DNA of 64,000 nucleotides from Clostridiales bacterium (GTDB lineage: Bacteria; Bacillota; Peptococcia; DRI-13; UBA5745): positions 19,850 to 83,849 of the forward strand of contig JBCFAO010000012.1 of the NCBI GenBank assembly GCA_038562165.1. Reading direction: 5' to 3'. How positions within the stretch are numbered: the stretch's first letter is position 1; every line of letters starts with the position of its first letter. Shown here piece after piece: positions 20,141 through 41,405 of this stretch. The notes under the pieces are model-generated. The model saw only the letters and a list, made by a program, of their open reading frames with translations. It made no database searches and was not told the DNA's origin. Made by a program: the position numbers and the translations under genes.

Positions 20141-21544
20141 TTACTGAGCCAGTACAATACCTAGCTTTTCCGCTATTTCCTTGGCCTGGGCCAGGGAGGG
20201 GGAGGCATCCCGCAGTACCAGGCGGCCGCCGCCCCGGTTCAGGGTATCCACCATGAAGGCGCCCTCATCGGTTTCGATGGTGATCTTTTGAATGCCGTAT
20301 TCTTTGTTTTCCTTAATGTCTACGGCAATACCCATCTCTTTGACTTTGTCTACGGCTTTGCCGTACATCTCGTAATCGCCGGTATTGGCGCCGAAGACGG
20401 CTCCCATAAGGACGCCGGGGATATTGATGGCCCGGCGGGCAAAAAGCTCGGGATAAAGCTCTACGGTAACCTTTTTAATATTGCCCTTGGCCAGCTCATG
20501 GACGATTCTGGCGGCATTGGTGGGGGAACCCACGGCCTGGCTGGATCCGCCTACTACGGCGTCGCCGTAGGTCTGGAGGATGGGCTTGGTGCCGTCGGCC
20601 AGCTTTTTAGCGATTTCCTTAGCCTTCTGCAAGGTTTCTTCGATCTGCTTGTTTTCGGCAGCCTTGACCTCTTCGCTGATCAGGGATTCCACATTGGCTT
20701 TACGCTTAAAGAAAGGTTCCATGAATTCCACCACCGTAGGCACCACGGCTTTGGCGGAGACCACATGGACCTCGGCAGCCATGGCGATCATCACGTCGAT
20801 GGGCACATTAACGGTCATATCCACCAGCATGCAGAGGCGGGCGGAGTACATACCGATAAGAATAGCGCCGCCCACATGGGTGGTGCAAAGGGCCGGCACC
20901 AGCACCCTGGGAGTGCAGGGATTGGCGATGGTGGGGGAAATGGCCAGAACCATGGCCTTTTCCATTTGCTCGGGAGTGCCGCCTTCCAAAGCTACGGTAG
21001 CGGCGGAGATGCAGGCGGCGCCGGCGCCGAAGCCTTCCATATTGCAGCCGGTGCTGACCTTGCCTACCCGGAAGATGCTGCCGATTTTCAGGATCAGGGC
21101 GGCTACCTCGGCAATGGCGGCCTCATCAACGCCCTCTGTCTGCATGGCTTTTACGAAGCCGGCATAGGGGCAGGAGTCGCCGGTGCCGGCACAGGGCCGC
21201 AAACCGATGCAGTGATTGCCCACCTGAGCCGCCAGCGTATAAAGCAGGGCGTTATCCAGGAAGGTATCCTTAAAGCATTTCGTGCCTTTAACTTGATTCA
21301 ATTGTGAGGCCACGGTGCCCAGCAGAATACTTTCGCCGTCTTTCAGGCCGATGTCCAGAGCTTTCAGGTTGTGGGCATATTCGTCCATCACTTTTGTGAG
21401 AATCTCTTCCCGGGAAAGGCCTGTACGCAGCTCGCTTTCAATGAGCACCACGTCTACTACCCGGGCGTTATATTCGCTGGCCAGGGCCAGCATTTCCCCA
21501 ATGGTTAAGGGCATTTTTTCCTTAATAGCTTCTCTTAAACCCAT
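20141..21544 (-). CDS. hmd: 2-(hydroxymethyl)glutarate dehydratase (fused [4Fe-4S] L-serine-dehydratase-like alpha+beta)
   Basis: 467 aa with serine-dehydratase-like domains. Cluster context. Start moved to the ATG at 21544, 8 nt after AAAGGA. Confidence 0.75.
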   Translation of the reverse strand: MGLREAIKEKMPLTIGEMLALASEYNARVVDVVLIESELRTGLSREEILTKVMDEYAHNLKALDIGLKDGESILLGTVASQLNQVKGTKCFKDTFLDNALLYTLAAQVGNHCIGLRPCAGTGDSCPYAGFVKAMQTEGVDEAAIAEVAALILKIGSIFRVGKVSTGCNMEGFGAGAACISAATVALEGGTPEQMEKAMVLAISPTIANPCTPRVLVPALCTTHVGGAILIGMYSARLCMLVDMTVNVPIDVMIAMAAEVHVVSAKAVVPTVVEFMEPFFKRKANVESLISEEVKAAENKQIEETLQKAKEIAKKLADGTKPILQTYGDAVVGGSSQAVGSPTNAARIVHELAKGNIKKVTVELYPELFARRAINIPGVLMGAVFGANTGDYEMYGKAVDKVKEMGIAVDIKENKEYGIQKITIETDEGAFMVDTLNRGGGRLVLRDASPSLAQAKEIAEKLGIVLAQ

Positions 21545-21594
21545 GTGATCATTCCTTTCCAAACCCTTGCATACTCATTTTTGATGTGGCAGCC

Positions 21595-22464
21595 TTAGCC
21601 TCTGTTGGCGTATTTGGCTTCAATTTCCCGAATTCTGGGCAGACCGATGAGATCATTGAATTGGGGGAAGGGAATCATTTTGTCGATCATGGTGGCGGTG
21701 GTGCCGTCTTTCTTTAAGCCTTCCATCAGGTCCAGCATGGCTTTAGTGGTGACATAAGTGGAGGCGGTGGGGTAGATGACCAGATTGTAGCCCATAGCTG
21801 CCAGTTTGTCGTTGGGGACCAGGGGAGTACGGCCCCCTTCCACCATGTTGGCCAGGGTGTAAACGGAAATAGCTTCGTTGATTTTCTTCATTTCTTCTTC
21901 GGACTCGGGAGACTCGATGAAAATAATGTCGGCGCCGGCTTCCTGGTAAGCAACGCCCCGCTCTAAGGCTTCTTCAATGCCATGGACGGTCCGGGCGTCG
22001 GTACGGGCCATGATCATGAAATCAGGATCGATTCTGGCGTCCACGGCGGCTTTGATTTTGCCCACCATCTCATCCTTGGAGATTACCTGGCGGCCTGTCA
22101 TGTGGCCGCACTTTTTGGGCATAACCTGGTCTTCCAACTGGATGACGGCTACGCCGGCCTTTTCGTATTCCCGAATGGTGCGGATCACATTGATAGCATT
22201 GCCAAAACCGGTGTCGGCGTCGGCGATAACGGGTACGCCGGCAGCCTCCACAAAAGTGTTGGCCCGCATAACCATTTCCGACATAGTCATCAGACCTGCG
22301 TCGGGCTCGCCCAAGTGGCTGGCGGATTGGCCGTAGCCTGTCATGTAAACGGCGTCAAAGCCTACTTTGCCGACAATCTTGGCAGTCAGCGCGTCATGGG
22401 CGCCGGGGGCGATAATAAGCTTGCCGGATTGGAATAATTGCTTTAATTGTTTTCTGCTGTTCAT
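21595..22464 (-). CDS. dml: 2,3-dimethylmalate lyase (isocitrate lyase / PEP mutase family)
   Basis: 289 aa. APGAHDALTAKI and EDQVMPKKCGH signature. Confidence 0.85.
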   Translation of the reverse strand: MNSRKQLKQLFQSGKLIIAPGAHDALTAKIVGKVGFDAVYMTGYGQSASHLGEPDAGLMTMSEMVMRANTFVEAAGVPVIADADTGFGNAINVIRTIREYEKAGVAVIQLEDQVMPKKCGHMTGRQVISKDEMVGKIKAAVDARIDPDFMIMARTDARTVHGIEEALERGVAYQEAGADIIFIESPESEEEMKKINEAISVYTLANMVEGGRTPLVPNDKLAAMGYNLVIYPTASTYVTTKAMLDLMEGLKKDGTTATMIDKMIPFPQFNDLIGLPRIREIEAKYANRG

Positions 22465-22473
22465 GTTCCAGAA

Positions 22474-23949
22474 TCAATCCTCTCTTAAATGGTTTTTCAA
22501 ATAGGAAAGCACCGGGTCGGGGAAATGGCGGGATAAAACGCCCATGGCGTATAAAAGATAGTCGTGATCAAAATAAAAATCGGGATTGGCGGGCAATAGG
22601 GAAATCCCCGGATCACCAAAAGCTTTGGCCAGGATTTCCTGCCTTTCCCCGGCTTTTGTGTAATAGAAAATTCCGCCCACAGCTAAAACGTGTCTGACTG
22701 CCCGAAGATCCCGGCCCACGGGGGTACCGGCTACCATGCCTAAAACAGGATCGGCCTCTTTGGAAAGATGGCCGGCATGGCGGCGGAGGGCTACGGCGAT
22801 GGCGGCCATGGCCAAGGCCTTGTCCATAGCCCATTCCCGGGGGCTGTCCGGTATGGTGGCCGGCTCTTTTTCCATTTTGCCGGTATAGTCGAGAACTTCT
22901 TCCGGCGTTACCGGCGGCTCCTGAGGGCCCATATCCCGGATTATAGCCAGAGGACCTACCGCCTCCGGAATGCCGGTGGCGCTGACCCGAAGGCCCAGAT
23001 TGCCTTCCACCGTCCGGTAGGAAAACTGCTTTTCGTTGTTGATCACCAGGCCCCGTTCTTCCAGCTTCAGGTTTTCCAGTTCCGGCAGAGCGGAATGGAT
23101 ATCCGTAGTAGCGCCGCCAATGTCCACAAGAATCAGGCCGCCGATGCCTTCTTGCTCATAGGTGCCCTTGGCCAGCAATTCACTGGCTAGGAGCACGGCT
23201 CCCGGCGTAGGCATTACCGTTTTGTCCGCCAGTATGGCTTGCAGCCGGTCTAAGCCTTTGGCCTTCGTAATCTGCTTAATAAACTGAGCGTGAATGGCTT
23301 CCCGGGCCGGCTTGATGTTCAGCTCATGGATGGTGGGCATGATGTTGGGCACCCTGACGTAAGGAATACCTGCTTCATCAAAGCGGGCGGCTACTTCAGC
23401 CTGGGCGTCTTTATTGCAGGCCACCACCACCATGGCTTTGCTTTTGACCCGGACGATGATCTCGGCATTTTCCAGAACGGATTCCCGGTCGCCGCCGTCG
23501 GTGCCGCCGGCCAGCAAAATAATATCCGGCCGGATTTCCTGCAGCACTTCCTCCCGGTATTCCACGGGCTCATCGTAGGAGATAACCTCCATTACCCGGG
23601 CCCCGGCGGTCATGGATACTTCCTTGGCAGCTTTGGCGGTAACCCGGGGCATATAGCCCAGGGCTACCATTCTAAGGCCGCCGGCGGCACTGCAGGTGGC
23701 GTAATGGCGTAAATCGTTACTGAAGCTGACGCCCTGGCCGGCTATGGCCTGCCGGGCATTTTCCACCCCCAGCAACACATCTTCCAAGGTGGTGGGAGAC
23801 TGGCCCCGGCCCAGAAAAATCAGGTTTGCCGGCTCTTCCAGGCGAAAAGCCGTAGCCTTGGTGTAGGTGCTGCCCACATCATAAACGAGAAGATTGGCTT
23901 CCTTTGCCTTTGCCGGTTCAAGGCTGTGGGCGGAATTAAGCGTACTCAC
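22474..23949 (-). CDS. mgmL: GlmL/MutL-type mutase reactivase (2-methyleneglutarate mutase accessory protein)
   Basis: YDVGSTYTKATAF and LLAGGTDGGD motifs. GTG at 23949 is 9 nt after GGAG and just after the mii stop. The alternative ATG at 23991 would overlap mii by 38 nt. Confidence 0.7.
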   Translation of the reverse strand: MSTLNSAHSLEPAKAKEANLLVYDVGSTYTKATAFRLEEPANLIFLGRGQSPTTLEDVLLGVENARQAIAGQGVSFSNDLRHYATCSAAGGLRMVALGYMPRVTAKAAKEVSMTAGARVMEVISYDEPVEYREEVLQEIRPDIILLAGGTDGGDRESVLENAEIIVRVKSKAMVVVACNKDAQAEVAARFDEAGIPYVRVPNIMPTIHELNIKPAREAIHAQFIKQITKAKGLDRLQAILADKTVMPTPGAVLLASELLAKGTYEQEGIGGLILVDIGGATTDIHSALPELENLKLEERGLVINNEKQFSYRTVEGNLGLRVSATGIPEAVGPLAIIRDMGPQEPPVTPEEVLDYTGKMEKEPATIPDSPREWAMDKALAMAAIAVALRRHAGHLSKEADPVLGMVAGTPVGRDLRAVRHVLAVGGIFYYTKAGERQEILAKAFGDPGISLLPANPDFYFDHDYLLYAMGVLSRHFPDPVLSYLKNHLRED

Positions 23950-23953
23950 GGCC

Positions 23954-25105
23954 TTAAGCTCCGTAAATCTTATCGGTTTCCACAAAAGCATAGCCTTCCA
24001 TCAGGCGGCGGGCCGTCCGTTCGATGCTGGCTTTCACCACTTCGCCGTCTTTGACAGCAGCCCCTACGGGGATGACGCCGGCAGGATGGCCGATGCGCAC
24101 CGTCTCGATGCTGTCGATATGAGGAATGACCTGGTTGACGATGGTGCCGGGGATCTTGGCGGCAGCGCCGGTGCAAGCCGTGCCGGTGCCGGGATAAGTC
24201 TTATGCAGCACCTGCATAAACATCATGCGGGAAACGAAGTCAACATCGCTTTTCTTGATGGTGTTGCCGGTGGTGAAATCCACATAATCGGCGGCTTCGG
24301 TAACAAAGGCGATCATGGGGAAAGCGGGGGAGAGCTTAGTGGCTTCTTCCTCGGTTTTGGCCTTGCCGATAATGACGGTGCACTTGGCCCGGATCTCTTC
24401 CAAATAAGCCAGCAGCTCTTTGTTGCCGTTGATTTCTGTGGGATTTTCCGTACCCTTCATGCCTACGTCTTTCGCCCGCACAAAGAGGCAGGGGTTAGAC
24501 AGGTCCACCATGGACACTTCGATGGGGCCTTTGCTGGTTTCCACCACGTCTACCACGTTGCCGGTGGGCAGCAGCTTGCCGGTGGAAGAACCGGCGGTGG
24601 CGGCAAAATTCATCAGGATAGGAGCGGCGGTGCCGGGAACGCCGTCGATTTTGCAATCGCCTTTGACTACGGCTTTGCCGTCTTTGACCTGAACTTCCGC
24701 AACCAGGATCTTGCCGGTATTGGTGTTGTGAATGCGGACAGTGGTTACAGGCTCCACAGCCCGGACAATGGATTCATCAATAGCAAAGGGGCCTACGGCG
24801 GAGGAAATATTGCCGCAGTTGCCGCTGTAGTCGATGACGGTGTCGTTGATGCTGACCTGGCCGAAGGTGTAGTCCACATCGGCGTCGGGACGGCTGGGGG
24901 GGCCGATGATGGCCAGCTTGCTGGTCAGGGGGTCGGCGCCGGCTAAACCGTCGATTTGACGGACGTCGGGGCTGCCGAAGATGGCCAGGATAATTTTGTC
25001 CCGGATAGCTTTGTCGGAGGGCAGGTCATTTTCTTTCAGGAACACGGCTTTACTGGTGCCGCCCCGCATGATGACGGTTGGAACACGAAAAACATCAGAC
25101 TGCAT
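23954..25105 (-). CDS. mii: 3-methylitaconate delta-isomerase (PrpF family)
   Basis: VIMRGGTSKAVF PrpF N-terminal motif. ATG at 25105 is 9 nt after AAGGAG. Confidence 0.85.
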   Translation of the reverse strand: MQSDVFRVPTVIMRGGTSKAVFLKENDLPSDKAIRDKIILAIFGSPDVRQIDGLAGADPLTSKLAIIGPPSRPDADVDYTFGQVSINDTVIDYSGNCGNISSAVGPFAIDESIVRAVEPVTTVRIHNTNTGKILVAEVQVKDGKAVVKGDCKIDGVPGTAAPILMNFAATAGSSTGKLLPTGNVVDVVETSKGPIEVSMVDLSNPCLFVRAKDVGMKGTENPTEINGNKELLAYLEEIRAKCTVIIGKAKTEEEATKLSPAFPMIAFVTEAADYVDFTTGNTIKKSDVDFVSRMMFMQVLHKTYPGTGTACTGAAAKIPGTIVNQVIPHIDSIETVRIGHPAGVIPVGAAVKDGEVVKASIERTARRLMEGYAFVETDKIYGA

Positions 25106-25118: not shown

Positions 25119-26963
25119 TTATTTATTTCTTGCCTTTAATAGGGCTTCTGTTTCAGCAATGATCTTATCCGTATCGGTGCCGGGGCCATAGAAGGCGTCT
25201 ACGCCTAAGAAATCAATGCCTTCATCAGCGATTTTCTTTTCATACATGGCATGCTCTTCTTCTTTTTCGGCAATACGGCCGCCGGCGATGATCAGGGTCT
25301 TATCCCGCCGGCCCAGCTCTTCCAGACGCTGGCCTACCCGGGGAAAGAGGGTTTGAGCCATGCCCAGCAGGTTGTTGATGCCGATGATGTCGGCATTGGC
25401 TTCGGCGGCTACTTCCGCTACGGTTTCCGGCAGGTTCATGCCCCGCAGGTAAATGATATTGAAGCCTGCCTTCTGGTAAGCTTCCCGTACCTGGTTGATG
25501 CCCTGGACGTGGGCGTCGGCGCCTACGGTGCCCAAAACGATGGTTTCCGGCCTGTTGGCTTTGACTTCCGCCGGCACGGTGATATTATCGATGGAAACCG
25601 CTACCCGCTCCGGATCGATGCCCAGGGGAGTGAAGCCTTTGATGTAGCGGGTGATGCCGTCATGATCCCGGTGAACCTTGACGTGACGCTTCAGATCCCA
25701 GCCGCCGGCCCGCTGGCAGTCGAAGATACCGCTTTTGCCGGCTTCCACAGCCTTGTCGATAAGCTCCTCATCGCTCCACTGCATCCAGAATTCCGGGGTA
25801 ATCTGGTCGGGAGTCAGGTTCTTTACGCCCAAAGCGCCTTCCAGCACAGCCATGGCCTCGCTGAGGATTTCTTTTTTCCTGGCGTCGATAATGGGAGATT
25901 CGATGGGCTGGGTATAAGTACCGTCAAAGACGTTGCGGGTGGCCCAGATGGACTGGCCCATGGAATCTCCGGTGGGAATACCCACGGATTCGGCAGCCTT
26001 AGGCCGGTAGAAGTGGGCGCCGCCCAGCTTGGCATTGATGGCCATCCGGGCAAAATGAGCAGACTCGGCGATCAGGTTGGGCGGCGGATTCTGGAAGGTT
26101 TCCGGTACCACGATCAGGGATTTGCTCCACATATTTTCTTTAAATGCCTGCATAACGGCCAGATCCGCATAGATGTTGATGCCGGCGATATTCATCTGGA
26201 TAGCGGACAACTCAGCCGGCAGGCCGGCGTGAATGGCCAGGCCCTCGGCCATCAAGCACATGGCCAGAGCCATACCGTCGGTGCCGCCGATGTTATTCAA
26301 ATGCTTGTGGGAGTCAAGCTGTACGAAGATATTGTTGTCGGCGCAGACCTGAAGGGCTTTGTAGCCGTTAACTACCTTCGTTTTGTAATCATGGATGCCC
26401 CGGCCGCCGAAATGGACGTGGATCACCGGACCGATGTCGGTGCCGTCAAAGCCGGCAATTAAAGCATTGATAATGGAAAGGTGGGGGGTGTCCCCGGTAG
26501 CGTTAATCCGCACCGGATGCTTGGCGCCGCCGCCCATTTGCACGTAGTCCCGCTCTCCTTTGGGAGTGATGCCGCCTTTGCCCCGGGACTGCTCGATGAG
26601 TTCCCGGCCTTTCAAAGGATCAATATGGCGGGTGGCTTCGGAATGGACGAAGTGGAAGAGGGTCTCGTCGAATTTTTCGGCGTACTCATACATGTTCTTG
26701 GATTCTTTGTATGTTTCTTCACCGGTATTGCGGCCCAAAATGGGATTCTGCACAGGCCAGCCTCTTTTTTCCGCCAGCTGGGCCAGCTCGTAAATACGGT
26801 AACCGCTGCGGACTATCCCCGCTACTTCCCGGGGATAGGGCGCCGGCAGGCCCACAACTTCGCCTTTTTCGTCCAGATCCGGCATCTCCACGCCGAAAGT
26901 GTCGGCATAAGCCCGGACGGCTTCAATATCTTCTTTGATAATACGTTTTGTCTTTTCTTGCAT
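25119..26963 (-). CDS. mgm: Coenzyme B12-dependent 2-methyleneglutarate mutase
   Basis: 614 aa. C-terminal cobalamin-binding domain with GADAHVQGI (DxHxxG). Followed by mii and the GlmL-like gene. Confidence 0.88.
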
Positions 26964-30028: not shown

Positions 30029-30210
30029 ACATCTGCGCCCCAAGTTCTTTTCGGATAGCAGATTGAGTCCGAAGGCCATCTGCGCCCTGATATCTTCGGA
30101 TAGCAGATTGAGTCCGAAGGCCATCTGCGCCCTGATATCTTCGGATAGCAGATTGAGTCCGAAGGCCATCTGCGCCCTGATATCTTCGGATAGCAGATTG
30201 AGTCCGAAGG
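30029..30210. repeat. Tandem array, 45 bp x4 (three perfect copies), each unit carrying a hairpin
   Basis: Unit CCATCTGCGCCCTGATATCTTCGGATAGCAGATTGAGTCCGAAGG at 30076, 30121 and 30166. Diverged first copy at 30029-30075. Inverted repeat CTTCGGA-N12-TCCGAAG in each unit. Confidence 0.9.
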
Positions 30211-34079: not shown

Positions 34080-34970
34080 TTAACAATCTTTGACCTTGAC
34101 GCCGGCCAAGTCTTCCCAAACCTTGATGACGGCGGAAATATCCTGGCGGTTGAGGCCTTTGGCCCGGGCCATCTCAAAAACCTGAGCCGCAGCGGCGGTC
34201 AAAGGCAGAGGGGCGGCCACGTCTTTGGCGGCGTCAAGAGCCAGGCCCAGATCTTTGTACTGCAGATCCACGGCAAAGCCCGTATCAAAAGCATCGGCCA
34301 TGATGAATTTGTCAAACTTAGCCTCCAGGGCATAGGAACGGCCGGAGCTGACGCTGATTACTTCTTTCATGGTTTCCGCTTTCAGACCCAGCTTAGCGCC
34401 CAAAACGAGAGCCTCGGCCAGGGCGGCCATGCTGGTGCCCAAGAGCAAGTTGTTGACGATTTTAATGGCGTCGCCGGCGCCGGCTTCTCCAACGTGGTAA
34501 ATGTTTTTCCCTAATACCTGGAGAACGGGAGCAACTTTTTCATAAGTTTCTTCGTCACAGCCCACCATAATGGTAAGGGTGCCTGCCGCAGCGCCGGACA
34601 CGCCGCCGCTGACGGGAGCGTCCATGTATTTGACGCCGTATTTCTCGCCGGCCTTGGCCATAGCCTTGGTGGTGGCGGGAGCTACGCTACTCATGTCCAT
34701 GATGATGGTGCCGGGTTTGCAGTTTTCCATAACGCCGCCTTTGCCGGTCATGACCGTTTCTACAATTTTGGCGTTGGGCAGCGAAGTAACGATCAAATCA
34801 GCTTTGGCGGACAACTCTCCGCTATCGGCACAGGCTTTGGCGCCGAAGCCTTCCAGCTCTTTGACGTTTGCTTCAATTAAATCATAAACATAGACCTCGT
34901 AGCCGGCAGCCAAAAGATTCTTTGCCATAGGTTTGCCCATGGCGCCTGCGCCGATAAAACCGATTTTCAT
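34080..34970 (-). CDS. hgd: 2-(hydroxymethyl)glutarate dehydrogenase (3-hydroxyisobutyrate dehydrogenase family)
   Basis: MKIGFIGAGAMGKPMAKNL Rossmann N-terminus. Start set to the ATG at 34970 after AGAGGA. Confidence 0.85.
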   Translation of the reverse strand: MKIGFIGAGAMGKPMAKNLLAAGYEVYVYDLIEANVKELEGFGAKACADSGELSAKADLIVTSLPNAKIVETVMTGKGGVMENCKPGTIIMDMSSVAPATTKAMAKAGEKYGVKYMDAPVSGGVSGAAAGTLTIMVGCDEETYEKVAPVLQVLGKNIYHVGEAGAGDAIKIVNNLLLGTSMAALAEALVLGAKLGLKAETMKEVISVSSGRSYALEAKFDKFIMADAFDTGFAVDLQYKDLGLALDAAKDVAAPLPLTAAAAQVFEMARAKGLNRQDISAVIKVWEDLAGVKVKDC

Positions 34971-35085: not shown

Positions 35086-35667
35086 TTAGCGCAAGCCGTC
35101 TTCGCCTTTGATCTCGCTGATTTGCAGGCCGCCGATTCTGGGATGAGGACGGCCGCCGTCAGTGAAGGCCAGAGCCACTACGATTTCGTCGCATTTGGGA
35201 GCGTCGGCAATCCTGACCTCCATGGCATCATAGTGGGTGCGGACAAAAGCGGCGTCTTTATAGTGCAGAGGTACATCCAAAGCCGTACCGGCAGCGCCGG
35301 CTTTTTTGGCGGAAGGAATGATGGCTTTGCCGCCGCCGATGGCGTCGCGCATGGGTTTGCCCAGCTTGGGATGAAGAATGGCGGCGCAATGCTCTAATTC
35401 GCCGTCCAGGCCGGCGATGGCGCCTTTGCCGTAGCTGTGGATATTGCCTTCGCCCAGAATCTTGGCAGCTTCCTTGGAAAGGTAATCGCCCAGCCATTCG
35501 CCGACTTCACTGAGCTCGGACAAATCTTCCTGGTATTTGCCGGCATAAGGATTCTTAATAACGGCGGCTACGGAAACCCGGCGAATGGGTTTTTCCAGGT
35601 CGGAGAAGCCTTCGTAACGGATTTCTTCCACAGAGGTAACGACTTTTCTGATTTTGGGTTCTAACAT
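35086..35667 (-). CDS. AA_synth / DUF1185 family protein ('amino acid synthesis' family, function unknown)
   Basis: About 193 aa. Sequence pattern (VAAVIKNPYAG..., GKGAIAGLDGELEH) recalled as PF06684-like. ATG at 35667 after GGAGAG. Confidence 0.5.
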   Translation of the reverse strand: MLEPKIRKVVTSVEEIRYEGFSDLEKPIRRVSVAAVIKNPYAGKYQEDLSELSEVGEWLGDYLSKEAAKILGEGNIHSYGKGAIAGLDGELEHCAAILHPKLGKPMRDAIGGGKAIIPSAKKAGAAGTALDVPLHYKDAAFVRTHYDAMEVRIADAPKCDEIVVALAFTDGGRPHPRIGGLQISEIKGEDGLR

Positions 35668-35705: not shown

Positions 35706-36623
35706 TTACTCGGTTTGGGAGCCTGGCATATTGATCCGGATCATCTGATCCTGAACTCTGGCGGTCATCGCCAGTAAGTTGCCTTTATGCTTTTGCCGGA
35801 GGGCTTCCTGCTCCGCTTGGGCCAAAGCCTGCCGCACTTCCCGGCGGGTCAGCCGGTCTACTGCCACTACTACATCCAGATCCCGGATATCGCTTTGGGG
35901 ATCGAAAACACCGGCTTTCGTCGTCAGAACCCGGGGAGAAGGCACATAGGTGGTATTGGCCAGGTGAGTGGCCAAAGCGTCGGCTAAAATGCAACGGGAA
36001 GAAAAAACGCTGACCCCTTGGGCGATGCCCCGGGTGAAGCTTCTGCCCCCCAAACCGCTGGTGGCTACGCCGCCGATGCCGTCCTCAGCTTTGATGGGAA
36101 CCACCAGATCCACCTGGCCGGCAGCAAGGCTTGACATAATGCCCAGATTCAGCTTTTGTCCGGGGGCCAGCCGCAGAGCTACGTCGCCGCCGTTGTTGAC
36201 GGAAACCCGCTGGGCTCCCCGGGCAAAGAGCCAATCGGCTACTAAATCCGCCATAGCCCCGGCAACGGTAGCCATAGGAGTCAAAGTAGGCTCTTCCACT
36301 GCTAAAACGGCCTCCAGCATTTGGGCCGGCAGTCCCGTCAGAATCCGCAAGGGAATTTGGCCGGGATACAGGCGCAATAAATCCAGAGAGGAGGTGAGCT
36401 CTTTCAGCCCTTCCTCTATTACGGCAAAAGCCTGGCAGCAAAGGTCCGTTAAGGGACGGCCTTCTTTATCGGCCATAATCACCATGGAAACGGGCCCGTA
36501 GTCTACGTAAACCTTGCCGTCCTCCAGCACCCGGTAAGGACCGGAGTCCGGGGCGGAGGCAAGCCGGTCATGATCTGTAATTTGATACTGCATAGAAGCC
36601 TCCGCAAAACCTGTAGTAATCAT
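35706..36623 (-). CDS. UPF0280 / ApbE-related protein
   Basis: 305 aa. Recalled resemblance to the UPF0280 family (ApbE-like fold). Sits directly downstream of hnr. Confidence 0.5.
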   Translation of the reverse strand: MITTGFAEASMQYQITDHDRLASAPDSGPYRVLEDGKVYVDYGPVSMVIMADKEGRPLTDLCCQAFAVIEEGLKELTSSLDLLRLYPGQIPLRILTGLPAQMLEAVLAVEEPTLTPMATVAGAMADLVADWLFARGAQRVSVNNGGDVALRLAPGQKLNLGIMSSLAAGQVDLVVPIKAEDGIGGVATSGLGGRSFTRGIAQGVSVFSSRCILADALATHLANTTYVPSPRVLTTKAGVFDPQSDIRDLDVVVAVDRLTRREVRQALAQAEQEALRQKHKGNLLAMTARVQDQMIRINMPGSQTE

Positions 36624-36727: not shown

Positions 36728-36731
36728 CGGC

Positions 36732-38237
36732 CTAGGCATCGCCTTTTAAGGTTTTGACATCCTTGACCTGATCCATATGACCGCCAATAGCCTCGTAGTC
36801 CGATAGCTTCATGGTATACTCCACCGGCGCCACCGTAGCGGGAGTGGGGACCCAGCTAAAGCCGTTGGCTACCACTTGCTCGGTATCGATGATGAAGTTG
36901 ATGCCGCCGCCGGGAAGAATAAAGGTGGGAGCGCCGCCGATGGTCAGAACGGCTTTGCCGGCGTGGACGGCTTTGGAAAGAGCCAGAGGCTTCTTGCAGA
37001 CGCCGCCCCGGGCGCTGCCGCCGGTACCGCCGGTGTACATCACGGAACAGCGGGATTCTTCACAGGCTTCATTGATGGCTTTCGGCACCCGCAGGGCTTT
37101 TTCCGTCATGGGGATGGCCTTGACTTCGCCGTCGGCCTGTAGCTCAAAGAGCTCATGAATCTCACCGGTGGTATTGACCACCAGAATCGTCATGCCCGGT
37201 TTGGCAATGGACATATCCACGCTCTTGATGGCATCCCGGCAGCTCATCAGCGTAGTGCCGCCGATGCCGTCGCCGTGTTCGCCAAAGTAGCGGCCCCGGG
37301 AGCTCTTGGTGGCGTTGGGCACCACGCCGCTCCAGGAAAGGCCGATGGCAGCGCCGGCCAGATGCTCGGTGCATAAGCCGATGACATGATGGTCGATAAC
37401 CAGGCATTCGTCCACGCATTCTTTCATGAGATAGGCAAAGAGGCCTACGGTAGCGCTGCCGCAGCCCAGGCGCATTTTCTTTTCCTGAACGCCGTTGATG
37501 ATGGGGGCTTTGCCGGCCTGCATGCGGACTTTGTATTTCTTGTCTACGGAAACTTCCACTTCCTGGCCGTTGGCCAGTTCCACGATGGTGCGGGCCGTCA
37601 TGAAGCCGCCGTCACCGGTGAGCCGGTTAGCGCCGCCGATGGCGATCATTTTGGAGCCGTATTCTTCCGTATTGACCATACCCACAACTTTGCCGTCACG
37701 GTAGACCTTGGCGCCCTCTTCGCCGATATAGCTGTTGGTATCCAGCTTCACAATCAGGCCGCTGTAGCTCAAAGGTGCTTCTGTGACAACGGTAACCACA
37801 TCCACGCCCTCTCTGCTTTCCTTGACGATATGGGGAGCAGGCAGGGAGCAGGGGTAGTTGGCGCCGCCGCCGACGGCGGTAATGATGGGCCGGCGGATAT
37901 TTTCCTCGGGGGAAACTAAATCCTTGGGCTCCAAAACATGTTCCAAAGTTCTTTCCAGCTTGCCGTTTCTGTTGGCGTAGCGTTTGCAAGCACCGGTAGC
38001 GCCTTCAGGAACCCGGCACTGAATGGGACAGTTGCTGCATATTACGGCGGCAGCCGGCAATTCGTCGGTTTTCTCCAAAGCTTTAAAAGGACAAACCCGG
38101 ACGCAGATGCCGCATTGTACGCAGGAATCTTTAATGTGCAGTTTTTTTCCTTCTAAGTACAAAGCTTCTACGGGACAGTTTTTTACGCAAATACCGCAGC
38201 TTTTACAATTTTCGTTAACGATGATCACTAAATCCAC
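36732..38237 (-). CDS. hnr: 6-hydroxynicotinate reductase (N-terminal 2x[4Fe-4S] ferredoxin domain)
   Basis: CKSCGICVKNCP and CVQCGICVRVCP, then CSNCPIQC...C. About 500 aa. Start ambiguous (GTG at 38237 or GTG at 38228). Confidence 0.78.
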   Translation of the reverse strand: MDLVIIVNENCKSCGICVKNCPVEALYLEGKKLHIKDSCVQCGICVRVCPFKALEKTDELPAAAVICSNCPIQCRVPEGATGACKRYANRNGKLERTLEHVLEPKDLVSPEENIRRPIITAVGGGANYPCSLPAPHIVKESREGVDVVTVVTEAPLSYSGLIVKLDTNSYIGEEGAKVYRDGKVVGMVNTEEYGSKMIAIGGANRLTGDGGFMTARTIVELANGQEVEVSVDKKYKVRMQAGKAPIINGVQEKKMRLGCGSATVGLFAYLMKECVDECLVIDHHVIGLCTEHLAGAAIGLSWSGVVPNATKSSRGRYFGEHGDGIGGTTLMSCRDAIKSVDMSIAKPGMTILVVNTTGEIHELFELQADGEVKAIPMTEKALRVPKAINEACEESRCSVMYTGGTGGSARGGVCKKPLALSKAVHAGKAVLTIGGAPTFILPGGGINFIIDTEQVVANGFSWVPTPATVAPVEYTMKLSDYEAIGGHMDQVKDVKTLKGDA

Positions 38238-38299
38238 CCTTTCTTAAACCCTCTTAACCCCTTAAAACCTAAGCATTACCTTGGCGGCTTATTAAAGCC

Positions 38300-39460
38300 T
38301 TATTGAACTTTGGCCTGGCGTGTGGCGGGAGGCGTATTGCGGCTCTTGTTGACCTTCACTACGCCGTCGATGATGACGATGCTGACGCCGGGGATGTCGC
38401 CGGCGGCAATGGCGCCCAAAGCGTCCTCGGCTACGGAGCCCAAAGGGGCGTCCATGATTACCAGGTCGGCCTCTTTGCCGGGAGCAATAACGCCGGTGTT
38501 TAGACCGTAGACCTTGGCGGTATTGCCGGTGGCCATACAAACGGTCTGTTCGGGAGCGATGCCGGATACGGAAGCGATCTGGCACATATTGCGCAGGATG
38601 CCCAAGGGAATCAGGCCGGTGCCGGAAGGAGCGTCGTTGCCGAAGATAATCCGGGGCAGCATACCTTTTTCCTGGGCCCGGCGGGCTACGTAATCGGCTA
38701 CCTTGGGATTGCCGCACTGAACGATTTCCAGAGCAAATTCCGTCTCGTCCATGATACGGTCCACTTCCTGCAGGGAGATAGCGGTAGGTCCGCCATTAAT
38801 ATGAGAAACCACATCGGGCTTCGTGGCGATAACATCAGCGGCAGTGACGGTGGAGCTGCCGGGAATGGAAGTGCCGCCGGTATGCATTTGCACTTTGAAA
38901 CCATATTTATGGGCCCACTCTACCATCGGAGCTGCTTCGGCAGGAGACTTGACGGAACCCAGGCCGATTTCGCCTACGATCCATACGCCTTGCTCTTTCA
39001 GCTCGGCAAAGTCTTTTTCCACAAGGCCTTTTTCCAGGATCAGGCCGCCGCCGTGAACTTTAACCCCGGAAGGCCGGGCATTCTCATAAGATTTATGGGC
39101 TAAAATAGCCAGGGCTTTCGTACCGGCCGGATCTTTAGGACGGCCGGGCATATGAGCCTCGCCGGCGGAAATCATAGTGGTAACGCCGCCGTGTAAAGCA
39201 CTGTCAATATAATTAAGGGTGGACTGGCGCTGGGCAAAATCTCCGATAGTGGTATGAACGTGAGAATCAAAAAGTCCGGGTGTTACGGTAGTGCCGCCGG
39301 CGTCAATAACTTTGGCGCCTTCAGCCTTTTCGGCCAGCTCTTTGCCGCCGATGGCAACGATAAGGTTGTCCTCCACGACTATAGTATCACCTTTCAGGAT
39401 TGGGTTGGCACAATCCCCGCTGACAATAGTACCGATGTTGGTAATGATTAGCTTGCTCAT
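38300..39460 (-). CDS. ena: Enamidase (amidohydrolase superfamily; 1,4,5,6-tetrahydro-6-oxonicotinate hydrolase)
   Basis: 386 aa from the ATG at 39460 (GAGGAG RBS). GLFDSHVHTTIG metal-binding motif. Confidence 0.82.
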   Translation of the reverse strand: MSKLIITNIGTIVSGDCANPILKGDTIVVEDNLIVAIGGKELAEKAEGAKVIDAGGTTVTPGLFDSHVHTTIGDFAQRQSTLNYIDSALHGGVTTMISAGEAHMPGRPKDPAGTKALAILAHKSYENARPSGVKVHGGGLILEKGLVEKDFAELKEQGVWIVGEIGLGSVKSPAEAAPMVEWAHKYGFKVQMHTGGTSIPGSSTVTAADVIATKPDVVSHINGGPTAISLQEVDRIMDETEFALEIVQCGNPKVADYVARRAQEKGMLPRIIFGNDAPSGTGLIPLGILRNMCQIASVSGIAPEQTVCMATGNTAKVYGLNTGVIAPGKEADLVIMDAPLGSVAEDALGAIAAGDIPGVSIVIIDGVVKVNKSRNTPPATRQAKVQ

Positions 39461-39534: not shown

Positions 39535-39550
39535 AGCAAGAAGTATGCCA
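39535..39550 (-). promoter_or_regulatory. Sigma-54 (-24/-12) promoter upstream of ena
   Basis: Minus strand TGGCATACTTCTTGCT. GG-N10-GC spacing is exact. About 75 nt upstream of the ena ATG. Confidence 0.75.
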
Positions 39551-39683
39551 AAAATTCGACAATGATGAAAAATAGAATAGAGTATACAAAAAACCTTTAC
39601 ATTTGTTAAGATTTTTGATGATTGGGCCAGAAAGCAGAAAAGGGCAAAAGTTGTCGGATAAAAACGGAAAAAGCGACCAAACA

Positions 39684-39770
39684 TTTCAAAAATGTAATGC
39701 CTCAAAAATATGGCGGCCTGTGAGGGATTTTCAACGTTTCAAAAATGAAATGATGGTTTCAAGGTTGAAA
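39684..39770. promoter_or_regulatory. Three TTTCA-N4-TGAAA palindromes (candidate enhancer/UAS for the sigma-54 activator)
   Basis: TTTCAaaaaTGTAA 39684-39697, TTTCAaaaaTGAAA 39737-39750, TTTCAaggtTGAAA 39757-39770. They lie 135-235 bp upstream of the -24/-12 element. Confidence 0.5.
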
Positions 39771-39833
39771 TACACAGGCGCCGATATTGCTGAGGCATAA
39801 GGGGTGAGGCTTTTAATTATTCTATTTTTTCAT

Positions 39834-41405
39834 TTATTCAATGCCAAATTCTTTGATTTTTCGCCAGAGGGTGATGGTGCTGATACCCAGCAGGTCGGCG
39901 GCTTCTTTTTTAATGCCGCCGGCATGATGCAAGGCGTTTTTGATGGCTGCAATCTCCGCATGCTGGATCTGGTCCTTTAAATTGAAAGATTTGCCCGTTG
40001 GGCCCCTGTGGCCCTGACTCAAGTTCAGCAAATAAGGGGGCAGGCTTGAACTCAGCAACCGGCTTTCGTTGACGCTGGTCATATTCATAGCCCGTTCCAC
40101 GCAGCTTTTCAACTCCCGCACATTGCCGGGCCAGTGGTGGCTCATTAAAATGTCGTAAAATCTGTCTTCGGCGGAAAAGACGAATTTTCCCAACAGCCGG
40201 TTAAATTCCGCAATAAAAGTTTTAACCAGCAGGGGAATATCCTCCTTGCGCTCCCGCAAAGGGGGGATGCGGATCTCGATGACGTTGATGCGGTAGTAGA
40301 GGTCCTCCCGGAAACGGCCTTCTTTGACAGCCTGAAGCAGGTCGCTATGGGTGGAGGAAATAATGCGGACGTCCAGCTTAATCGGCGTGAACTCCCCGAT
40401 GCGCATTACCTCTTTTTCCTGAATGACCCGCAGCAGTTTTGTCTGCAGGTCCGGCGGCATTTCACTGATTTCGTCAAGAAAAATCGTACCCGTATTGGCC
40501 TGCTCGAAGGCGCCGCTGCTGCCTTCTTTTTTGGCACCGGTAAAAGCGCCGCCGGAATAGCCGAATAAATAGCTTTCGATGATGCTGGCCGGTATGGCGC
40601 CGCAGTTGATGGCGACGAAAGGCTTATCCCGCCGGTCGCTTTCGTTATGGATAGCCTGGGCAAAGAGCTCTTTACCGGTGCCCGTTTCCCCATTGAGCAA
40701 AATGGAGGAGGCCCGGGAGGCCGTAAGGCACAAGTGCTTGGCATAAGTGATTTTTTCGCTTTCGCCTACAATATCCTTTAAATTGTAGCGGGCGGTCTGA
40801 AACTTTTTAACTTCCTCAAATAATTTTTTCTCATGGTGGACGGTGAGCTCGTTATTGAAGCCCAGACCGTATTCTTTAGTAATAGGAATGCGGATAGCCA
40901 TGGCCCCGTGAACGGAGGTGGATTCGCCGAAGGTGGGGGTTTGCTCCTCCATGGCTTTGCGGGCCAGCTTGCTGACCTTGCCGATTTGCTTTTCAATAAC
41001 CTTGCCAGCGGCGTCTACCGTATTGAGCCGTAAGCCGTTTTTATCGAAAATAACGGCTTCGCCGCCTACGAGGCGGGCAATAAAGGGCAGGGCCTGATCC
41101 AAAGATTTGACCAAGGCTTGATCCCTGGCGGTTTTGGCGGTGTTGCTGGCGGCAATCACGTAGTCGCCGAAGGGAATGGCCCAGGTTTGGGCGTCATTGG
41201 CGATTTGAGAGAAACCGATCTTGATCTGGCCGCTTTCACCGGCTTCCCGGGCCAGGTCGTAAACCATGCCCCGCATTTCCGTCAACTCCGTGCCGGAGGA
41301 ATCGTAAGTCCTGATCCGGATGCCGGCGGTGTCGGTGATTGTGGAATAGCCTTCGCAAATTTGGGCGATGGATTTTAAGGCATCTTCAAATTGGGCAGCT
41401 TCCAT
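39834..41405 (-). CDS. Sigma-54-dependent transcriptional activator (bEBP) with an uncharacterised N-terminal sensor domain
   Basis: 523 aa. GETGTGKELFAQAIH Walker A, GGAFTGA loop, C-terminal Fis-type HTH. Confidence 0.88.
   Translation of the reverse strand: MEAAQFEDALKSIAQICEGYSTITDTAGIRIRTYDSSGTELTEMRGMVYDLAREAGESGQIKIGFSQIANDAQTWAIPFGDYVIAASNTAKTARDQALVKSLDQALPFIARLVGGEAVIFDKNGLRLNTVDAAGKVIEKQIGKVSKLARKAMEEQTPTFGESTSVHGAMAIRIPITKEYGLGFNNELTVHHEKKLFEEVKKFQTARYNLKDIVGESEKITYAKHLCLTASRASSILLNGETGTGKELFAQAIHNESDRRDKPFVAINCGAIPASIIESYLFGYSGGAFTGAKKEGSSGAFEQANTGTIFLDEISEMPPDLQTKLLRVIQEKEVMRIGEFTPIKLDVRIISSTHSDLLQAVKEGRFREDLYYRINVIEIRIPPLRERKEDIPLLVKTFIAEFNRLLGKFVFSAEDRFYDILMSHHWPGNVRELKSCVERAMNMTSVNESRLLSSSLPPYLLNLSQGHRGPTGKSFNLKDQIQHAEIAAIKNALHHAGGIKKEAADLLGISTITLWRKIKEFGIE

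What the first reader, a model, noticed from the sequence alone, without database searches (positions are those of the whole stretch)
20141..41405. Complete Eubacterium barkeri-type nicotinate fermentation gene set in one minus-strand block
Every enzyme family of the nicotinate-to-propionate/pyruvate fermentation described for E. barkeri (Alhapel et al. 2006) is present and contiguous:
- Nicotinate dehydrogenase: FAD, 2Fe-2S and Mo subunits (30387-33998).
- 6-hydroxynicotinate reductase with a 2x[4Fe-4S] N-terminus (36732-38237).
- Enamidase, 386 aa (38300-39460).
- 2-(hydroxymethyl)glutarate dehydrogenase (34080-34970).
- Serine-dehydratase-like Hmd (20141-21544).
- B12-dependent 2-methyleneglutarate mutase, 614 aa with DxHxxG (25119-26963), plus its GlmL-like reactivase.
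- PrpF-type methylitaconate isomerase.
- LeuCD-like dimethylmalate dehydratase.
- ICL-family dimethylmalate lyase.

Gene order, regulation (a sigma-54 bEBP), two embedded or flanking transporters and two extra genes differ from what I recall of the reference cluster. To my knowledge the pathway has been characterised experimentally in very few organisms.
Basis: partly seen in the sequence, partly recalled or inferred. Interest (0 to 1): 0.75.

Follow-up and report, generated by a model that had tools for sequence, protein, structure and literature searches.

The report
Nicotinate fermentation operon, sigma-54 controlled
This is an intact gene cluster for fermenting the vitamin nicotinate to propionate and pyruvate, the pathway worked out in Eubacterium barkeri, here in an uncultured Clostridia genome; the enzymes are ordinary members of that pathway, but the cluster appears to be switched on by a different regulator and uses a different version of one enzyme.

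Summary
All 16 non-regulatory genes of the E. barkeri nic cluster (locus L027) have a counterpart in one minus-strand block, 20141-39460. Identity is 47-77% for most; DmdA 39% and DmdB 51% are the exceptions. The solved E. barkeri enzymes are the top PDB hits.

- The two "extra" genes (ApbE-like, DUF1185/AA_synth) and the embedded EIIC-like transporter also occur in the E. barkeri cluster, and in most of 22 related genome loci.
- The Mo subunit is an NdhL+NdhM fusion of 747 aa.
- The 117-aa ORF at 29967-30320 is a 45-nt tandem repeat, not a gene.

Real differences from the reference:
- The regulator is a tandem-PAS sigma-54 activator, not a LysR protein. A -24/-12 promoter (39535-39550) and three ATTTCA-N4-TGAAAT upstream sites (39683-39771) lie before ena. 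This signature recurs upstream of nic operons in many Clostridia loci.
- DmdAB belongs to a different LeuCD-family lineage. E. barkeri's DmdAB scores as canonical LeuCD; the window's does not.

Verdict: a new member of a known kind, with inferred new regulation. No activity, induction or growth was tested. Interest is moderate to low.

The parts
39834..41405 (-). Sigma-54 enhancer-binding regulator, 523 aa: tandem PAS-like sensor (about residues 1-205), AAA+ domain with GAFTGA (residue 286), Fis-type HTH.
   Evidence: Pfam Sigma54_activat 3.9e-66, AAA_lid_14 and HTH_8. NCBIfam PrdR and PrpR hits below cut-off. GAFTGA and Walker A found. AF2 model pLDDT 89 with Foldseek hits to tandem-PAS sensors. 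Homologues at 70, 66, 57 and 51% identity all lie directly upstream of nic genes.
39683..39771 (.). Three copies of the palindrome ATTTCA-N4-TGAAAT (39683-39698, 39736-39751, 39756-39771). Predicted upstream activating sites, 148-221 nt upstream of the promoter.
   Evidence: These are the only matches with at most 1 mismatch in the 64-kb window. The motif recurs with stereotyped spacing upstream of sigma-54 promoters in related loci: 57 of 63 matches in 679 kb.
39535..39550 (-). Sigma-54 -24/-12 promoter TGGCATacttcTTGCT, 75 nt upstream of the ena ATG.
   Evidence: Identical in L029-L032, and equivalent elements lie upstream of nic operons in L006, L013-L018, L021, L022, L025, L035, L037 and L038.
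38300..39460 (-). Enamidase (Ena), 386 aa.
   Evidence: PDB 2VUN, E=8e-197. 77% identity to E. barkeri Ena. HVH motif at residue 67.
36732..38237 (-). 6-hydroxynicotinate reductase (Hnr), 498-501 aa, with two ferredoxin-type 4Fe-4S motifs and a further four-Cys motif.
   Evidence: 68% identity over the full length to E. barkeri Hnr. Fer4 domains. Invariant motifs in 15 homologues.
35706..36623 (-). ApbE-like (UPF0280 / AbpE_bact) protein, 305 aa. Conserved accessory gene, usually immediately after hnr.
   Evidence: 53% identity to the E. barkeri counterpart. Adjacent to hnr in all fetched loci but L006. Profile hits 2O34 at 5e-15, and ApbE 6NXJ only at 0.039.
35086..35667 (-). DUF1185 / AA_synth protein, 193 aa. 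Conserved accessory gene of unknown role.
   Evidence: Pfam PF06684, 1.3e-71. 72% identity to the E. barkeri counterpart. PDB 2QTP and 3BYQ are 'uncharacterized'.
34080..34970 (-). 2-(hydroxymethyl)glutarate dehydrogenase (Hgd), 296 aa.
   Evidence: PDB 3CKY, 3.7e-115. 64% identity.
33117..33998 (-). Nicotinate dehydrogenase FAD subunit (NdhF), 293 aa.
   Evidence: 47% identity to E. barkeri NdhF. XdhB-type family hits.
32651..33115 (-). Nicotinate dehydrogenase 2x[2Fe-2S] subunit (NdhS), 154 aa.
   Evidence: 66% identity to E. barkeri NdhS. Family hits. ATG start confirmed.
30387..32630 (-). Nicotinate dehydrogenase molybdopterin subunit, 747 aa. It is a fusion of NdhL (residues 4-419) and NdhM (residues 425-745).
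   Evidence: PDB 3HRD_A 2.8e-183 and 3HRD_B 1.8e-125. The nicotinate-contacting Tyr13M (MWYG) and the GVGEP motif are conserved.
30050..30210 (.). 45-nt tandem repeat, 3.6 perfect copies, in the ndhLM-EIIC spacer. It accounts for the spurious 117-aa ORF 29967-30320.
   Evidence: TRF. There is one copy in the 99%-identical MAG R1-B15.2. Logan contigs break at it.
28845..29930 (-). PTS_EIIC_2-family membrane protein, 361 aa. Candidate nicotinate or intermediate transporter.
   Evidence: Pfam 1.8e-82. 59% identity to the gene at the equivalent place in E. barkeri.
27507..28703 (-). Putative 2,3-dimethylmalate dehydratase large subunit (DmdA), 398 aa. Divergent LeuC/HacA-family lineage.
   Evidence: 39% identity to E. 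barkeri DmdA. LeuC equivalog score 342, below the 611 cut-off. Conserved just upstream of mgm in every non-barkeri locus but L019, where no DmdAB was detected.
26978..27469 (-). Putative 2,3-dimethylmalate dehydratase small subunit (DmdB), 163 aa.
   Evidence: TIGR02087 LeuD/DmdB family, 167 bits against a 109 cut-off. LeuD equivalog 138, below 246. 51% identity to E. barkeri DmdB.
25119..26963 (-). B12-dependent 2-methyleneglutarate mutase (Mgm), 614 aa.
   Evidence: 74% identity to E. barkeri Mgm over 607 aa. B12-binding domain. DAHVQG at residue 483.
23954..25105 (-). 3-methylitaconate isomerase (Mii), 383 aa.
   Evidence: PDB 3G7K, 1.4e-182. 73% identity.
22474..23949 (-). GlmL/MutL-like putative mutase reactivase (MgmL), 491 aa.
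   Evidence: Pfam MutL 1.3e-131. GlmL family. 58% identity to E. barkeri MgmL.
21595..22464 (-). 2,3-dimethylmalate lyase (Dml), 289 aa.
   Evidence: 73% identity to E. barkeri Dml. ICL/PEP-mutase family; PrpB equivalog score below cut-off.
20141..21544 (-). 2-(hydroxymethyl)glutarate dehydratase (Hmd), 467 aa, serine-dehydratase-like.
   Evidence: 74% identity to E. barkeri Hmd over 463 aa. Only a remote SdaA-alpha hit.
18575..19891 (-). NCS1-family permease, 438 aa. Probable regulon member and candidate substrate transporter.
   Evidence: Family hits. Homologues at 53-57% identity flank nic clusters in L013, L014 and L021. In L014 and L021 they have their own sigma-54 promoter and upstream sites.

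Best explanation
The block is a functional E. barkeri-type anaerobic nicotinate catabolic cluster in an uncultured Clostridia bacterium. The organism is the same species as MAG R1-B15.2 / MEL7623046.

Inferred pathway, by homology to the characterised enzymes:
1. Nicotinate is hydroxylated to 6-hydroxynicotinate by NdhF/S/LM.
2. Hnr reduces it to 1,4,5,6-tetrahydro-6-oxonicotinate.
3. Ena hydrolyses that to 2-formylglutarate and ammonia.
4. Hgd reduces it to 2-(hydroxymethyl)glutarate.
5. Hmd dehydrates it to 2-methyleneglutarate.
6. B12-dependent Mgm, with MgmL, rearranges it to 3-methylitaconate.
7. Mii isomerises it to dimethylmaleate.
8. The LeuCD-like pair hydrates it to 2,3-dimethylmalate.
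9. Dml cleaves that to propionate and pyruvate.

Inferred regulation, from sequence and comparison:
- The upstream one-component activator binds three ATTTCA-N4-TGAAAT sites.
- It senses nicotinate or an early intermediate through its tandem PAS-like domain.
- It then opens a sigma-54 promoter in front of ena.
- That drives one long transcript, ena to hmd, about 19.4 kb, perhaps including the NCS1 permease.

The ApbE-like and DUF1185 genes are conserved accessory genes. My guess, not shown, is that the ApbE-like protein helps to install the covalently bound flavin of Hnr.
For: - Homology of all enzymes to the E. barkeri proteins.
- Catalytic or cofactor motifs retained: DxHxxG in Mgm, HxH in Ena, Tyr13M and GVGEP in Ndh, Cys motifs in Hnr.
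- No strong minus-strand terminator-like site inside the block.
- The same 16 gene families are syntenic in 22 species-level genome loci.
- A single sigma-54 promoter plus the only close upstream-site matches in the window lie between the regulator and ena.
- Regulator homologues down to 51% identity always abut nic genes.
- 57 of 63 upstream-site matches in 679 kb lie within 350 nt upstream of a -24/-12 element, and none occur in clusters that have LysR or MerR-type regulators.
Against: - There are no expression, growth or metabolite data.
- rpoN, the selenium-insertion genes needed by the E. barkeri enzyme, a ferredoxin and B12 supply genes are not in the window, so they cannot be checked.
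- DmdAB is assigned by gene context, not by orthology.
- The 456-nt ndhLM-EIIC spacer and the 249-nt hmd-NCS1 spacer could hold internal promoters or attenuators that simple scans miss.
- The inducer is unknown.
- The role of the ApbE-like protein is speculative: similarity to true ApbE is only E=0.039.
Confidence: 0.85

Rival explanations
1. The cluster degrades a related pyridine or N-heterocyclic carboxylate, not nicotinate itself. The hydroxylase and reductase would have shifted specificity.
For: Xanthine-dehydrogenase-family hydroxylases change substrate easily. NdhF is only 47% identical to the E. barkeri subunit. Some related loci carry isochorismatase/nicotinamidase-like genes, which hints at other entry substrates such as nicotinamide.
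Against: The Mo subunit is 60-67% identical to NdhL/M and keeps Tyr13M, the residue modelled to bind the ring nitrogen of nicotinate. All eight downstream enzymes match the nicotinate-specific carbon skeleton at 58-77% identity, DmdAB aside. Nicotinamide would in any case enter through nicotinate.
Confidence: 0.07
2. The LeuCD-like pair is an ordinary leucine or lysine biosynthetic isomerase that happens to lie in the block, and the dimethylmalate dehydratase step is encoded elsewhere.
For: It is as similar to archaeal isopropylmalate isomerase (269 bits) as to E. barkeri DmdA (273 bits).
Against: It falls well below the LeuC and LeuD equivalog cut-offs: 342 against 611, and 138 against 246. 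It sits directly upstream of mgm in every non-barkeri nic locus examined but L019, where none was detected, across widely different taxa. No other candidate is in the cluster.
Confidence: 0.05
3. The cluster is transcribed from ordinary sigma-70 promoters, and the -24/-12 and palindrome matches are coincidental or regulate only the first genes.
For: Sigma-70-like hexamers occur in the same spacer and in the ndhLM-EIIC spacer. A 19-kb single transcript is long.
Against: The promoter and upstream-site arrangement is conserved, with fixed spacing, in front of different nic operon segments in many lineages. It co-occurs with the regulator.
Confidence: 0.1

Closest known systems
Eubacterium barkeri nicotinate fermentation cluster (Alhapel et al. 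2006, PNAS 103:12341; GenBank DQ310789; genome locus FNOU01000012.1 = L027)
   Same: All 16 non-regulatory gene families are present, including the ApbE-like, DUF1185 and PTS_EIIC_2 genes. Three sub-blocks are conserved: hnr-apbE-like, hgd-ndhFS(LM)-EIIC and mgm-mii-mgmL-dml-hmd. Identity is 47-77% for 14 genes.
   Different: The regulator is a sigma-54 activator, not a divergent LysR gene. ena is first in the operon. dmdAB lies before mgm and belongs to another LeuCD lineage. NdhL and NdhM are fused. An NCS1 permease is appended.
Sigma-54 / EBP regulons of Clostridial fermentations (PrdR, OrdR, LeuR and others; Nie et al. 2019, PMC6615313)
   Same: A one-component activator with AAA+ and HTH_8 domains sits next to a catabolic operon. 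There is a -24/-12 promoter and multiple palindromic upstream sites. PrdR is the best NCBIfam hit, though below cut-off.
   Different: The sensor is a tandem PAS-like module with no Pfam match. The upstream site is ATTTCA-N4-TGAAAT rather than TGT-N10-12-ACA. Nicotinate genes are not among the regulons listed in that paper.
Nicotinate dehydrogenase of E. barkeri (PDB 3HRD; Wagener et al. 2009)
   Same: Same subunit families. Tyr13M and the catalytic GVGEP glutamate are conserved.
   Different: The Mo-binding protein is one 747-aa chain, not L plus M. Fused forms occur in about 10 related loci. Split forms occur in E. barkeri, the Tissierellales-like loci and Desulfitobacterium. Selenium dependence is unknown here.
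Archaeal-type LeuCD / HacAB isomerases (TIGR02083, TIGR02084, TIGR02086, TIGR02087; PDB 4NQY, 4KP2)
   Same: Same two-subunit aconitase-family fold and family-level HMM matches.
   Different: Scores fall below the LeuC and LeuD equivalog cut-offs, and the gene context is nic-specific. By contrast, E. barkeri DmdA and DmdB pass those LeuC and LeuD cut-offs.

Membership tests
E. barkeri-type anaerobic nicotinate fermentation cluster | Three-component Mo hydroxylase (FAD, 2Fe-2S, Mo) whose closest characterised relative is nicotinate dehydrogenase. | tested here: met
   3HRD_A and 3HRD_B are the top PDB hits (615 + 423 bits, against 353 bits for the next family). NdhS 66% and NdhF 47% identity. 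Tyr13M conserved.
E. barkeri-type anaerobic nicotinate fermentation cluster | 6-hydroxynicotinate reductase and enamidase. | tested here: met
   Hnr 68% identity over the full length. Ena matches 2VUN at E=8e-197 with 77% identity.
E. barkeri-type anaerobic nicotinate fermentation cluster | Hgd and the serine-dehydratase-like Hmd. | tested here: met
   3CKY at 3.7e-115. Hmd 74% identity over 463 aa.
E. barkeri-type anaerobic nicotinate fermentation cluster | B12-dependent 2-methyleneglutarate mutase with DxHxxG, its GlmL-like partner, and 3-methylitaconate isomerase. | tested here: met
   Mgm 74%, MgmL 58% and Mii 73% identity. 3G7K at 1.4e-182. DAHVQG at residue 483.
E. barkeri-type anaerobic nicotinate fermentation cluster | 2,3-dimethylmalate dehydratase (DmdAB) orthologous to the E. 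barkeri pair. | tested here: inconclusive
   A LeuCD-family pair is present but only 39% and 51% identical to E. barkeri DmdAB. The E. barkeri pair is closer to canonical LeuCD. The assignment rests on conserved position.
E. barkeri-type anaerobic nicotinate fermentation cluster | 2,3-dimethylmalate lyase of the ICL/PEP-mutase family. | tested here: met
   73% identity to E. barkeri Dml. Below the PrpB equivalog cut-off.
E. barkeri-type anaerobic nicotinate fermentation cluster | Growth on or induction by nicotinate, with propionate, acetate/pyruvate and ammonia as products. | not testable with these tools
   The source is an uncultured MAG. No expression data are available.
Sigma-54-dependent bacterial enhancer-binding protein regulon | AAA+ sigma-54 interaction domain with GAFTGA, plus a DNA-binding HTH. 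| tested here: met
   PF00158 at 3.9e-66 and HTH_8 at 2.7e-10. GAFTGA at residue 286.
Sigma-54-dependent bacterial enhancer-binding protein regulon | A -24/-12 promoter and upstream activator sites in front of the target operon. | tested here: met
   TGGCAT-N5-TTGCT at 39535-39550. Three palindromes at 39683-39771. Both conserved in related loci.
Sigma-54-dependent bacterial enhancer-binding protein regulon | rpoN present in the genome, and activator-dependent transcription. | not testable with these tools
   rpoN is not in the 64-kb window, and the whole MAG cannot be read here.
ApbE FAD:protein FMN transferase | Significant sequence similarity to characterised ApbE, and a flavinylation target. 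| tested here: inconclusive
   Pfam ApbE at 1.5e-5, below the gathering score. The profile hits ApbE 6NXJ only at E=0.039 but the uncharacterised 2O34 at 5e-15. An invariant GCGSAT motif in Hnr is only a candidate site.
Canonical LeuCD (3-isopropylmalate dehydratase) | Score above the NCBIfam equivalog cut-offs TIGR02083 and TIGR02084. | tested here: not met
   Window DmdA scores 341.9 against a 610.65 cut-off, and DmdB 138.2 against 245.85.

The most novel reading that the evidence does not exclude
In many Clostridia, nicotinate fermentation may be a sigma-54 regulon. It would be run by a dedicated tandem-PAS activator that recognises ATTTCA-N4-TGAAAT. This regulon is not in the published Clostridiales sigma-54 reconstruction.

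The reference organism E. barkeri would then be atypical in three ways: a LysR regulator, a split NdhL/M, and a LeuCD-like DmdAB. The widespread dehydratase would be a distinct, uncharacterised LeuCD-family lineage. The conserved ApbE-like and DUF1185 genes would be unrecognised maturation factors, for example for the covalent flavin of Hnr.
Probability: 0.5. Interest if true: 0.45.

Novelty: new member of a known kind. Interest (0 to 1): 0.35.

Why it matters
As far as the held literature shows, the anaerobic nicotinate pathway has been studied experimentally only in E. barkeri.

This window and its relatives show that the full gene set is widespread:
- More than 600 Mgm homologues have E <= 1e-50.
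- Related loci come from 22 species-level genomes. Three loci are from named cultured strains: Lawsonibacter faecis NSJ-52, Brassicibacter mesophilus DSM 24659 and E. barkeri itself. Protein hits extend to Pseudoflavonifractor (Mgm) and Acetobacterium bakii (Ena).

That bears on vitamin B3 turnover in anaerobic communities.

The comparison also gives testable predictions:
- A specific regulator with a defined binding site.
- A second lineage of dimethylmalate dehydratase.
- Two conserved accessory genes whose roles are unknown.

Public annotation of the source MAG is generic (for example 'cobalamin-dependent protein'), so the pathway would be missed without this kind of comparison.

Tried and rejected
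- **NCBIfam and Pfam alone.** They gave only generic family names, with no nicotinate-specific models. I therefore went to the E. barkeri proteins directly.
- **Genome-collection scan with Mgm.** It did not return E. barkeri, because the peptide patterns reach only close relatives. I reached the E. barkeri locus through the enamidase cluster member Q0QLE9 instead.
- **Source papers.** Alhapel 2006 and Wagener 2009 are not held. Statements about Hnr's covalent flavin, selenium in NDH and the pathway chemistry rest on my memory of those papers, plus what PMC5746545 quotes.
- **Rfam.** No riboswitch or other RNA family anywhere in the window.
- **ORF 29967-30320.** Rejected as a gene. It is created by a perfect 45-nt tandem repeat that is present once in the sister MAG.
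- **Further sigma-54 promoters in the window.** A 2-mismatch scan found no more matches than chance overall (27 against 39 expected) and none on the minus strand in the other intergenic gaps.
- **ApbE-like protein as a true ApbE.** Not established.
- **Pfam on the regulator's N-terminus.** Nothing found. Only the structure prediction showed PAS-like folds, and the TM-scores are low (0.27-0.33) because the two domains are oriented differently from those in the templates.

Full report
**What is in the sequence.** Between 18575 and 41405 every substantial gene lies on the minus strand with short spacers. NCBIfam and Pfam give only generic names: xanthine-dehydrogenase-type subunits, amidohydrolase, HIBADH family, PrpF, a B12-binding domain, GlmL/MutL, LeuCD family, PEP-mutase/ICL family and a sigma-54 activator.

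**Direct comparison with the characterised enzymes.** Four PDB searches returned the E. barkeri proteins as the top hits, far ahead of generic paralogues.
- Enamidase 2VUN, E=8e-197, and the only hit at or below 1e-10.
- Hgd 3CKY, 388 bits, against 206 for tartronate semialdehyde reductase.
- Mii 3G7K, 610 bits, against 252 for PrpF.
- NDH 3HRD_A and 3HRD_B, 615 + 423 bits, against 353 for 4-hydroxybenzoyl-CoA reductase.

I then fetched the E. barkeri genome locus itself (L027, FNOU01000012.1). I reached it through the 90% cluster that contains Q0QLE9. BLASTP of the window proteins against it gave these identities:

| Protein | Identity | Protein | Identity |
|---|---|---|---|
| Ena | 77% | Mgm | 74% |
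| Hnr | 68% | Mii | 73% |
| ApbE-like | 53% | MgmL | 58% |
| AA_synth | 72% | Dml | 73% |
| Hgd | 64% | Hmd | 74% |
| NdhF | 47% | DmdA | 39% |
| NdhS | 66% | DmdB | 51% |
| NdhL / NdhM | 67% / 60% | EIIC-like | 59% |

Cofactor and catalytic motifs are retained:
- DAHVQG in Mgm and HVH in Ena.
- MWYG (Tyr13M, the residue modelled to bind the ring nitrogen of nicotinate) and GVGEP in the Mo subunit.
- Two ferredoxin motifs and a further four-Cys motif in Hnr.

- The E. barkeri order is LysR(-) | hnr, apbE-like, hgd, ndhF, ndhS, ndhL, ndhM, EIIC, ena, AA_synth, mgm, mii, mgmL, dml, hmd, dmdA, dmdB. The 'two extra genes' and the embedded transporter are therefore part of the reference cluster.
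- The window order is bEBP, ena, hnr, apbE-like, AA_synth, hgd, ndhF, ndhS, ndhLM, EIIC, dmdA, dmdB, mgm, mii, mgmL, dml, hmd, NCS1. Three sub-blocks are conserved, while ena, AA_synth and dmdAB have moved.
- The Mo subunit is a single 747-aa protein covering NdhL and NdhM.
- ORF 29967-30320 is an artefact of a perfect 45-nt x 3.6 tandem repeat. The repeat is present once in the 99%-identical MAG.

**Source and relatives.** The Mgm protein is identical to MEL7623046.1 from a Clostridiales MAG. The nearest species-level genome is the Clostridia MAG R1-B15.2, with the same flanking genes. A scan of species-representative genomes found 22 loci:
- MAGs labelled Peptococcaceae, Oscillospiraceae, Tissierellales, Desulfitobacterium and Proteiniborus.
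- The cultured strains Lawsonibacter faecis NSJ-52 and Brassicibacter mesophilus DSM 24659.
- A 14-kb contig binned as Treponema.

Protein searches found more than 600 Mgm homologues and thousands of enamidase homologues. Together with contigs fetched by exact protein match (L001-L003, L026-L038), gene-by-gene mapping shows the same 16 families in these loci wherever the fetched stretch reaches. The ApbE-like gene is adjacent to hnr in all but one locus. NdhL/M is fused in about ten loci. It is split in E. barkeri, the Tissierellales-like group and Desulfitobacterium.

**The dehydratase.**
- In every non-barkeri locus but L019, where none was detected, DmdA is 45-100% identical to the window protein but only 38-41% identical to E. 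barkeri DmdA, and it lies directly upstream of mgm.
- E. barkeri DmdA and DmdB pass NCBIfam's LeuC and LeuD equivalog cut-offs: 726.5 against 610.65, and 262.1 against 245.85.
- E. barkeri DmdA matches archaeal isopropylmalate isomerase at 394 bits.
- The window proteins fail those cut-offs, at 341.9 and 138.2. The window DmdA is no closer to E. barkeri DmdA (273 bits) than to the archaeal enzyme (269 bits).

The two clusters therefore use different lineages of the LeuCD family. The window's assignment as dimethylmalate dehydratase is an inference from conserved context, and E. barkeri is the outlier.

**Regulation.** The 523-aa protein at 39834-41405 has a sigma-54 interaction domain with GAFTGA, an AAA lid and a Fis-type HTH.
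- *Sensor.* The first ~205 residues have no Pfam match. They contain an internal duplication. They fold with mean pLDDT 89 into two alpha/beta modules whose best PDB matches are tandem-PAS or PDC sensors: FixL, MmoS, DctB and DhaR.
- *Promoter.* In the 373-nt spacer before ena there is a near-consensus -24/-12 element, TGGCATacttcTTGCT (39535-39550). It lies 75 nt upstream of the ATG that aligns with the E. barkeri start.
- *Upstream sites.* 148-221 nt further upstream are three copies of ATTTCA-N4-TGAAAT. These are the only matches with at most 1 mismatch in the whole window.
- *Regulator homologues.* Homologues at 70, 66, 57 and 51% identity all lie immediately upstream of ena-hnr or ndhF genes in other contigs.
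- *Wider conservation.* Across 679 kb of loci plus the window, 57 of 63 palindrome matches lie within 350 nt upstream of a -24/-12 element on the coding strand, at stereotyped distances. They stand in front of different operon heads: ena, hgd, ndhF and NCS1. None occur in the E. barkeri, Oscillospiraceae or Lawsonibacter/Pseudoflavonifractor loci.
- *Other regulators.* The Oscillospiraceae loci instead have a divergent MerR-isochorismatase (nicotinamidase-like) fusion.
- *Literature.* The published reconstruction of sigma-54 regulons in Clostridiales does not mention nicotinate.

The regulatory model is an inference from sequence and comparison. It is not shown experimentally.

**Accessory genes.**
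- The DUF1185/AA_synth protein matches two structural-genomics entries of unknown function.
- A profile of the ApbE-like proteins hits the uncharacterised 2O34 (5e-15) and true ApbE only marginally (0.039).
- From memory of Alhapel et al., Hnr carries a covalently bound flavin. The conserved pairing with an ApbE-like gene, and an invariant GCGSAT motif in Hnr, make flavin attachment a reasonable but untested guess. No held paper links ApbE to this enzyme.
- The EIIC-like protein and the NCS1 permease are candidate transporters. In L014 and L021 the NCS1 homologue has its own sigma-54 promoter and upstream sites.

**Limits.**
- No growth, expression or metabolite evidence exists for this organism.
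- rpoN, selenium-insertion genes, ferredoxin and cobamide supply cannot be checked in a 64-kb window.
- The key papers were not available to read.

**Verdict.** This is a correct and well-read finding: a complete, intact E. barkeri-type nicotinate fermentation cluster. It is a new member of a known kind. The real differences lie in regulation, the NdhLM fusion and the DmdAB lineage, and many uncharacterised relatives share them.

Noticed in passing
window 30050-30210: A perfect 45-nt tandem repeat (3.6 copies, each with a CTTCGGA...TCCGAAG hairpin) lies in the ndhLM-EIIC spacer. The 99%-identical MAG R1-B15.2 has one copy, and Logan contigs break exactly there. It is a strain-variable expansion or an assembly-sensitive site.
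   Followed up: partly
window 16676-18512: An IS3-family element (ORFs 17046-17891 and 17927-18415, with rve and HTH domains) is inserted between the NCS1 permease and the MarR/fabH genes. It is present in the window and in L001 but absent from L002 and L004, so the insertion is strain-specific.
   Followed up: partly
window 43570-44214 (+): A MocA/YgfJ-like molybdenum cofactor cytidylyltransferase (TIGR03310, 131 bits, below cut-off) lies 2.2 kb from the cluster. It could supply the cytosine dinucleotide cofactor for the Ndh enzyme. A 41-nt tandem repeat (43320-43428) lies just upstream of it.
   Followed up: partly
window 41499-41590: A 15/45-nt imperfect tandem repeat lies in the divergent spacer between the regulator gene and the YczE/DUF6198 membrane protein gene.
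   Followed up: no
L033 3402-4346 and L034 497-1441: Oscillospiraceae nic clusters carry a divergent MerR-family DNA-binding domain fused to an isochorismatase/nicotinamidase-like domain. This is a third, uncharacterised regulator type for the pathway.
   Followed up: partly
L037 5745-6605: A protein with an isochorismatase (nicotinamidase-like) domain and a Cu_amine_oxidN1 domain is encoded between the sigma-54 activator and ena. It hints that nicotinamide is an entry substrate in that organism.
   Followed up: no
L006 (JAITRD010000290.1): A 14-kb contig binned as Treponema carries a nic cluster 80-88% identical to the window for most genes (ApbE-like 59%, DmdB 72%, MgmL 74%). This could be horizontal transfer or a binning error.
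   Followed up: no
window 290-10020 (+): An unrelated plus-strand group: a fumarase/aspartase-class lyase, a UxaA-type (altronate/galactarate dehydratase-like) protein, two LarA-like proteins, an AbrB-family membrane protein, a weak DctM-like transporter and a class-V aminotransferase. It may be a hydroxy-acid catabolic cluster of unknown function.
   Followed up: no
L027 18976-20745: E. barkeri DmdA and DmdB score above NCBIfam's LeuC and LeuD equivalog cut-offs, and they follow a 367-nt gap after hmd. Automated annotation would call them LeuCD, and their dedicated role deserves re-examination.
   Followed up: partly
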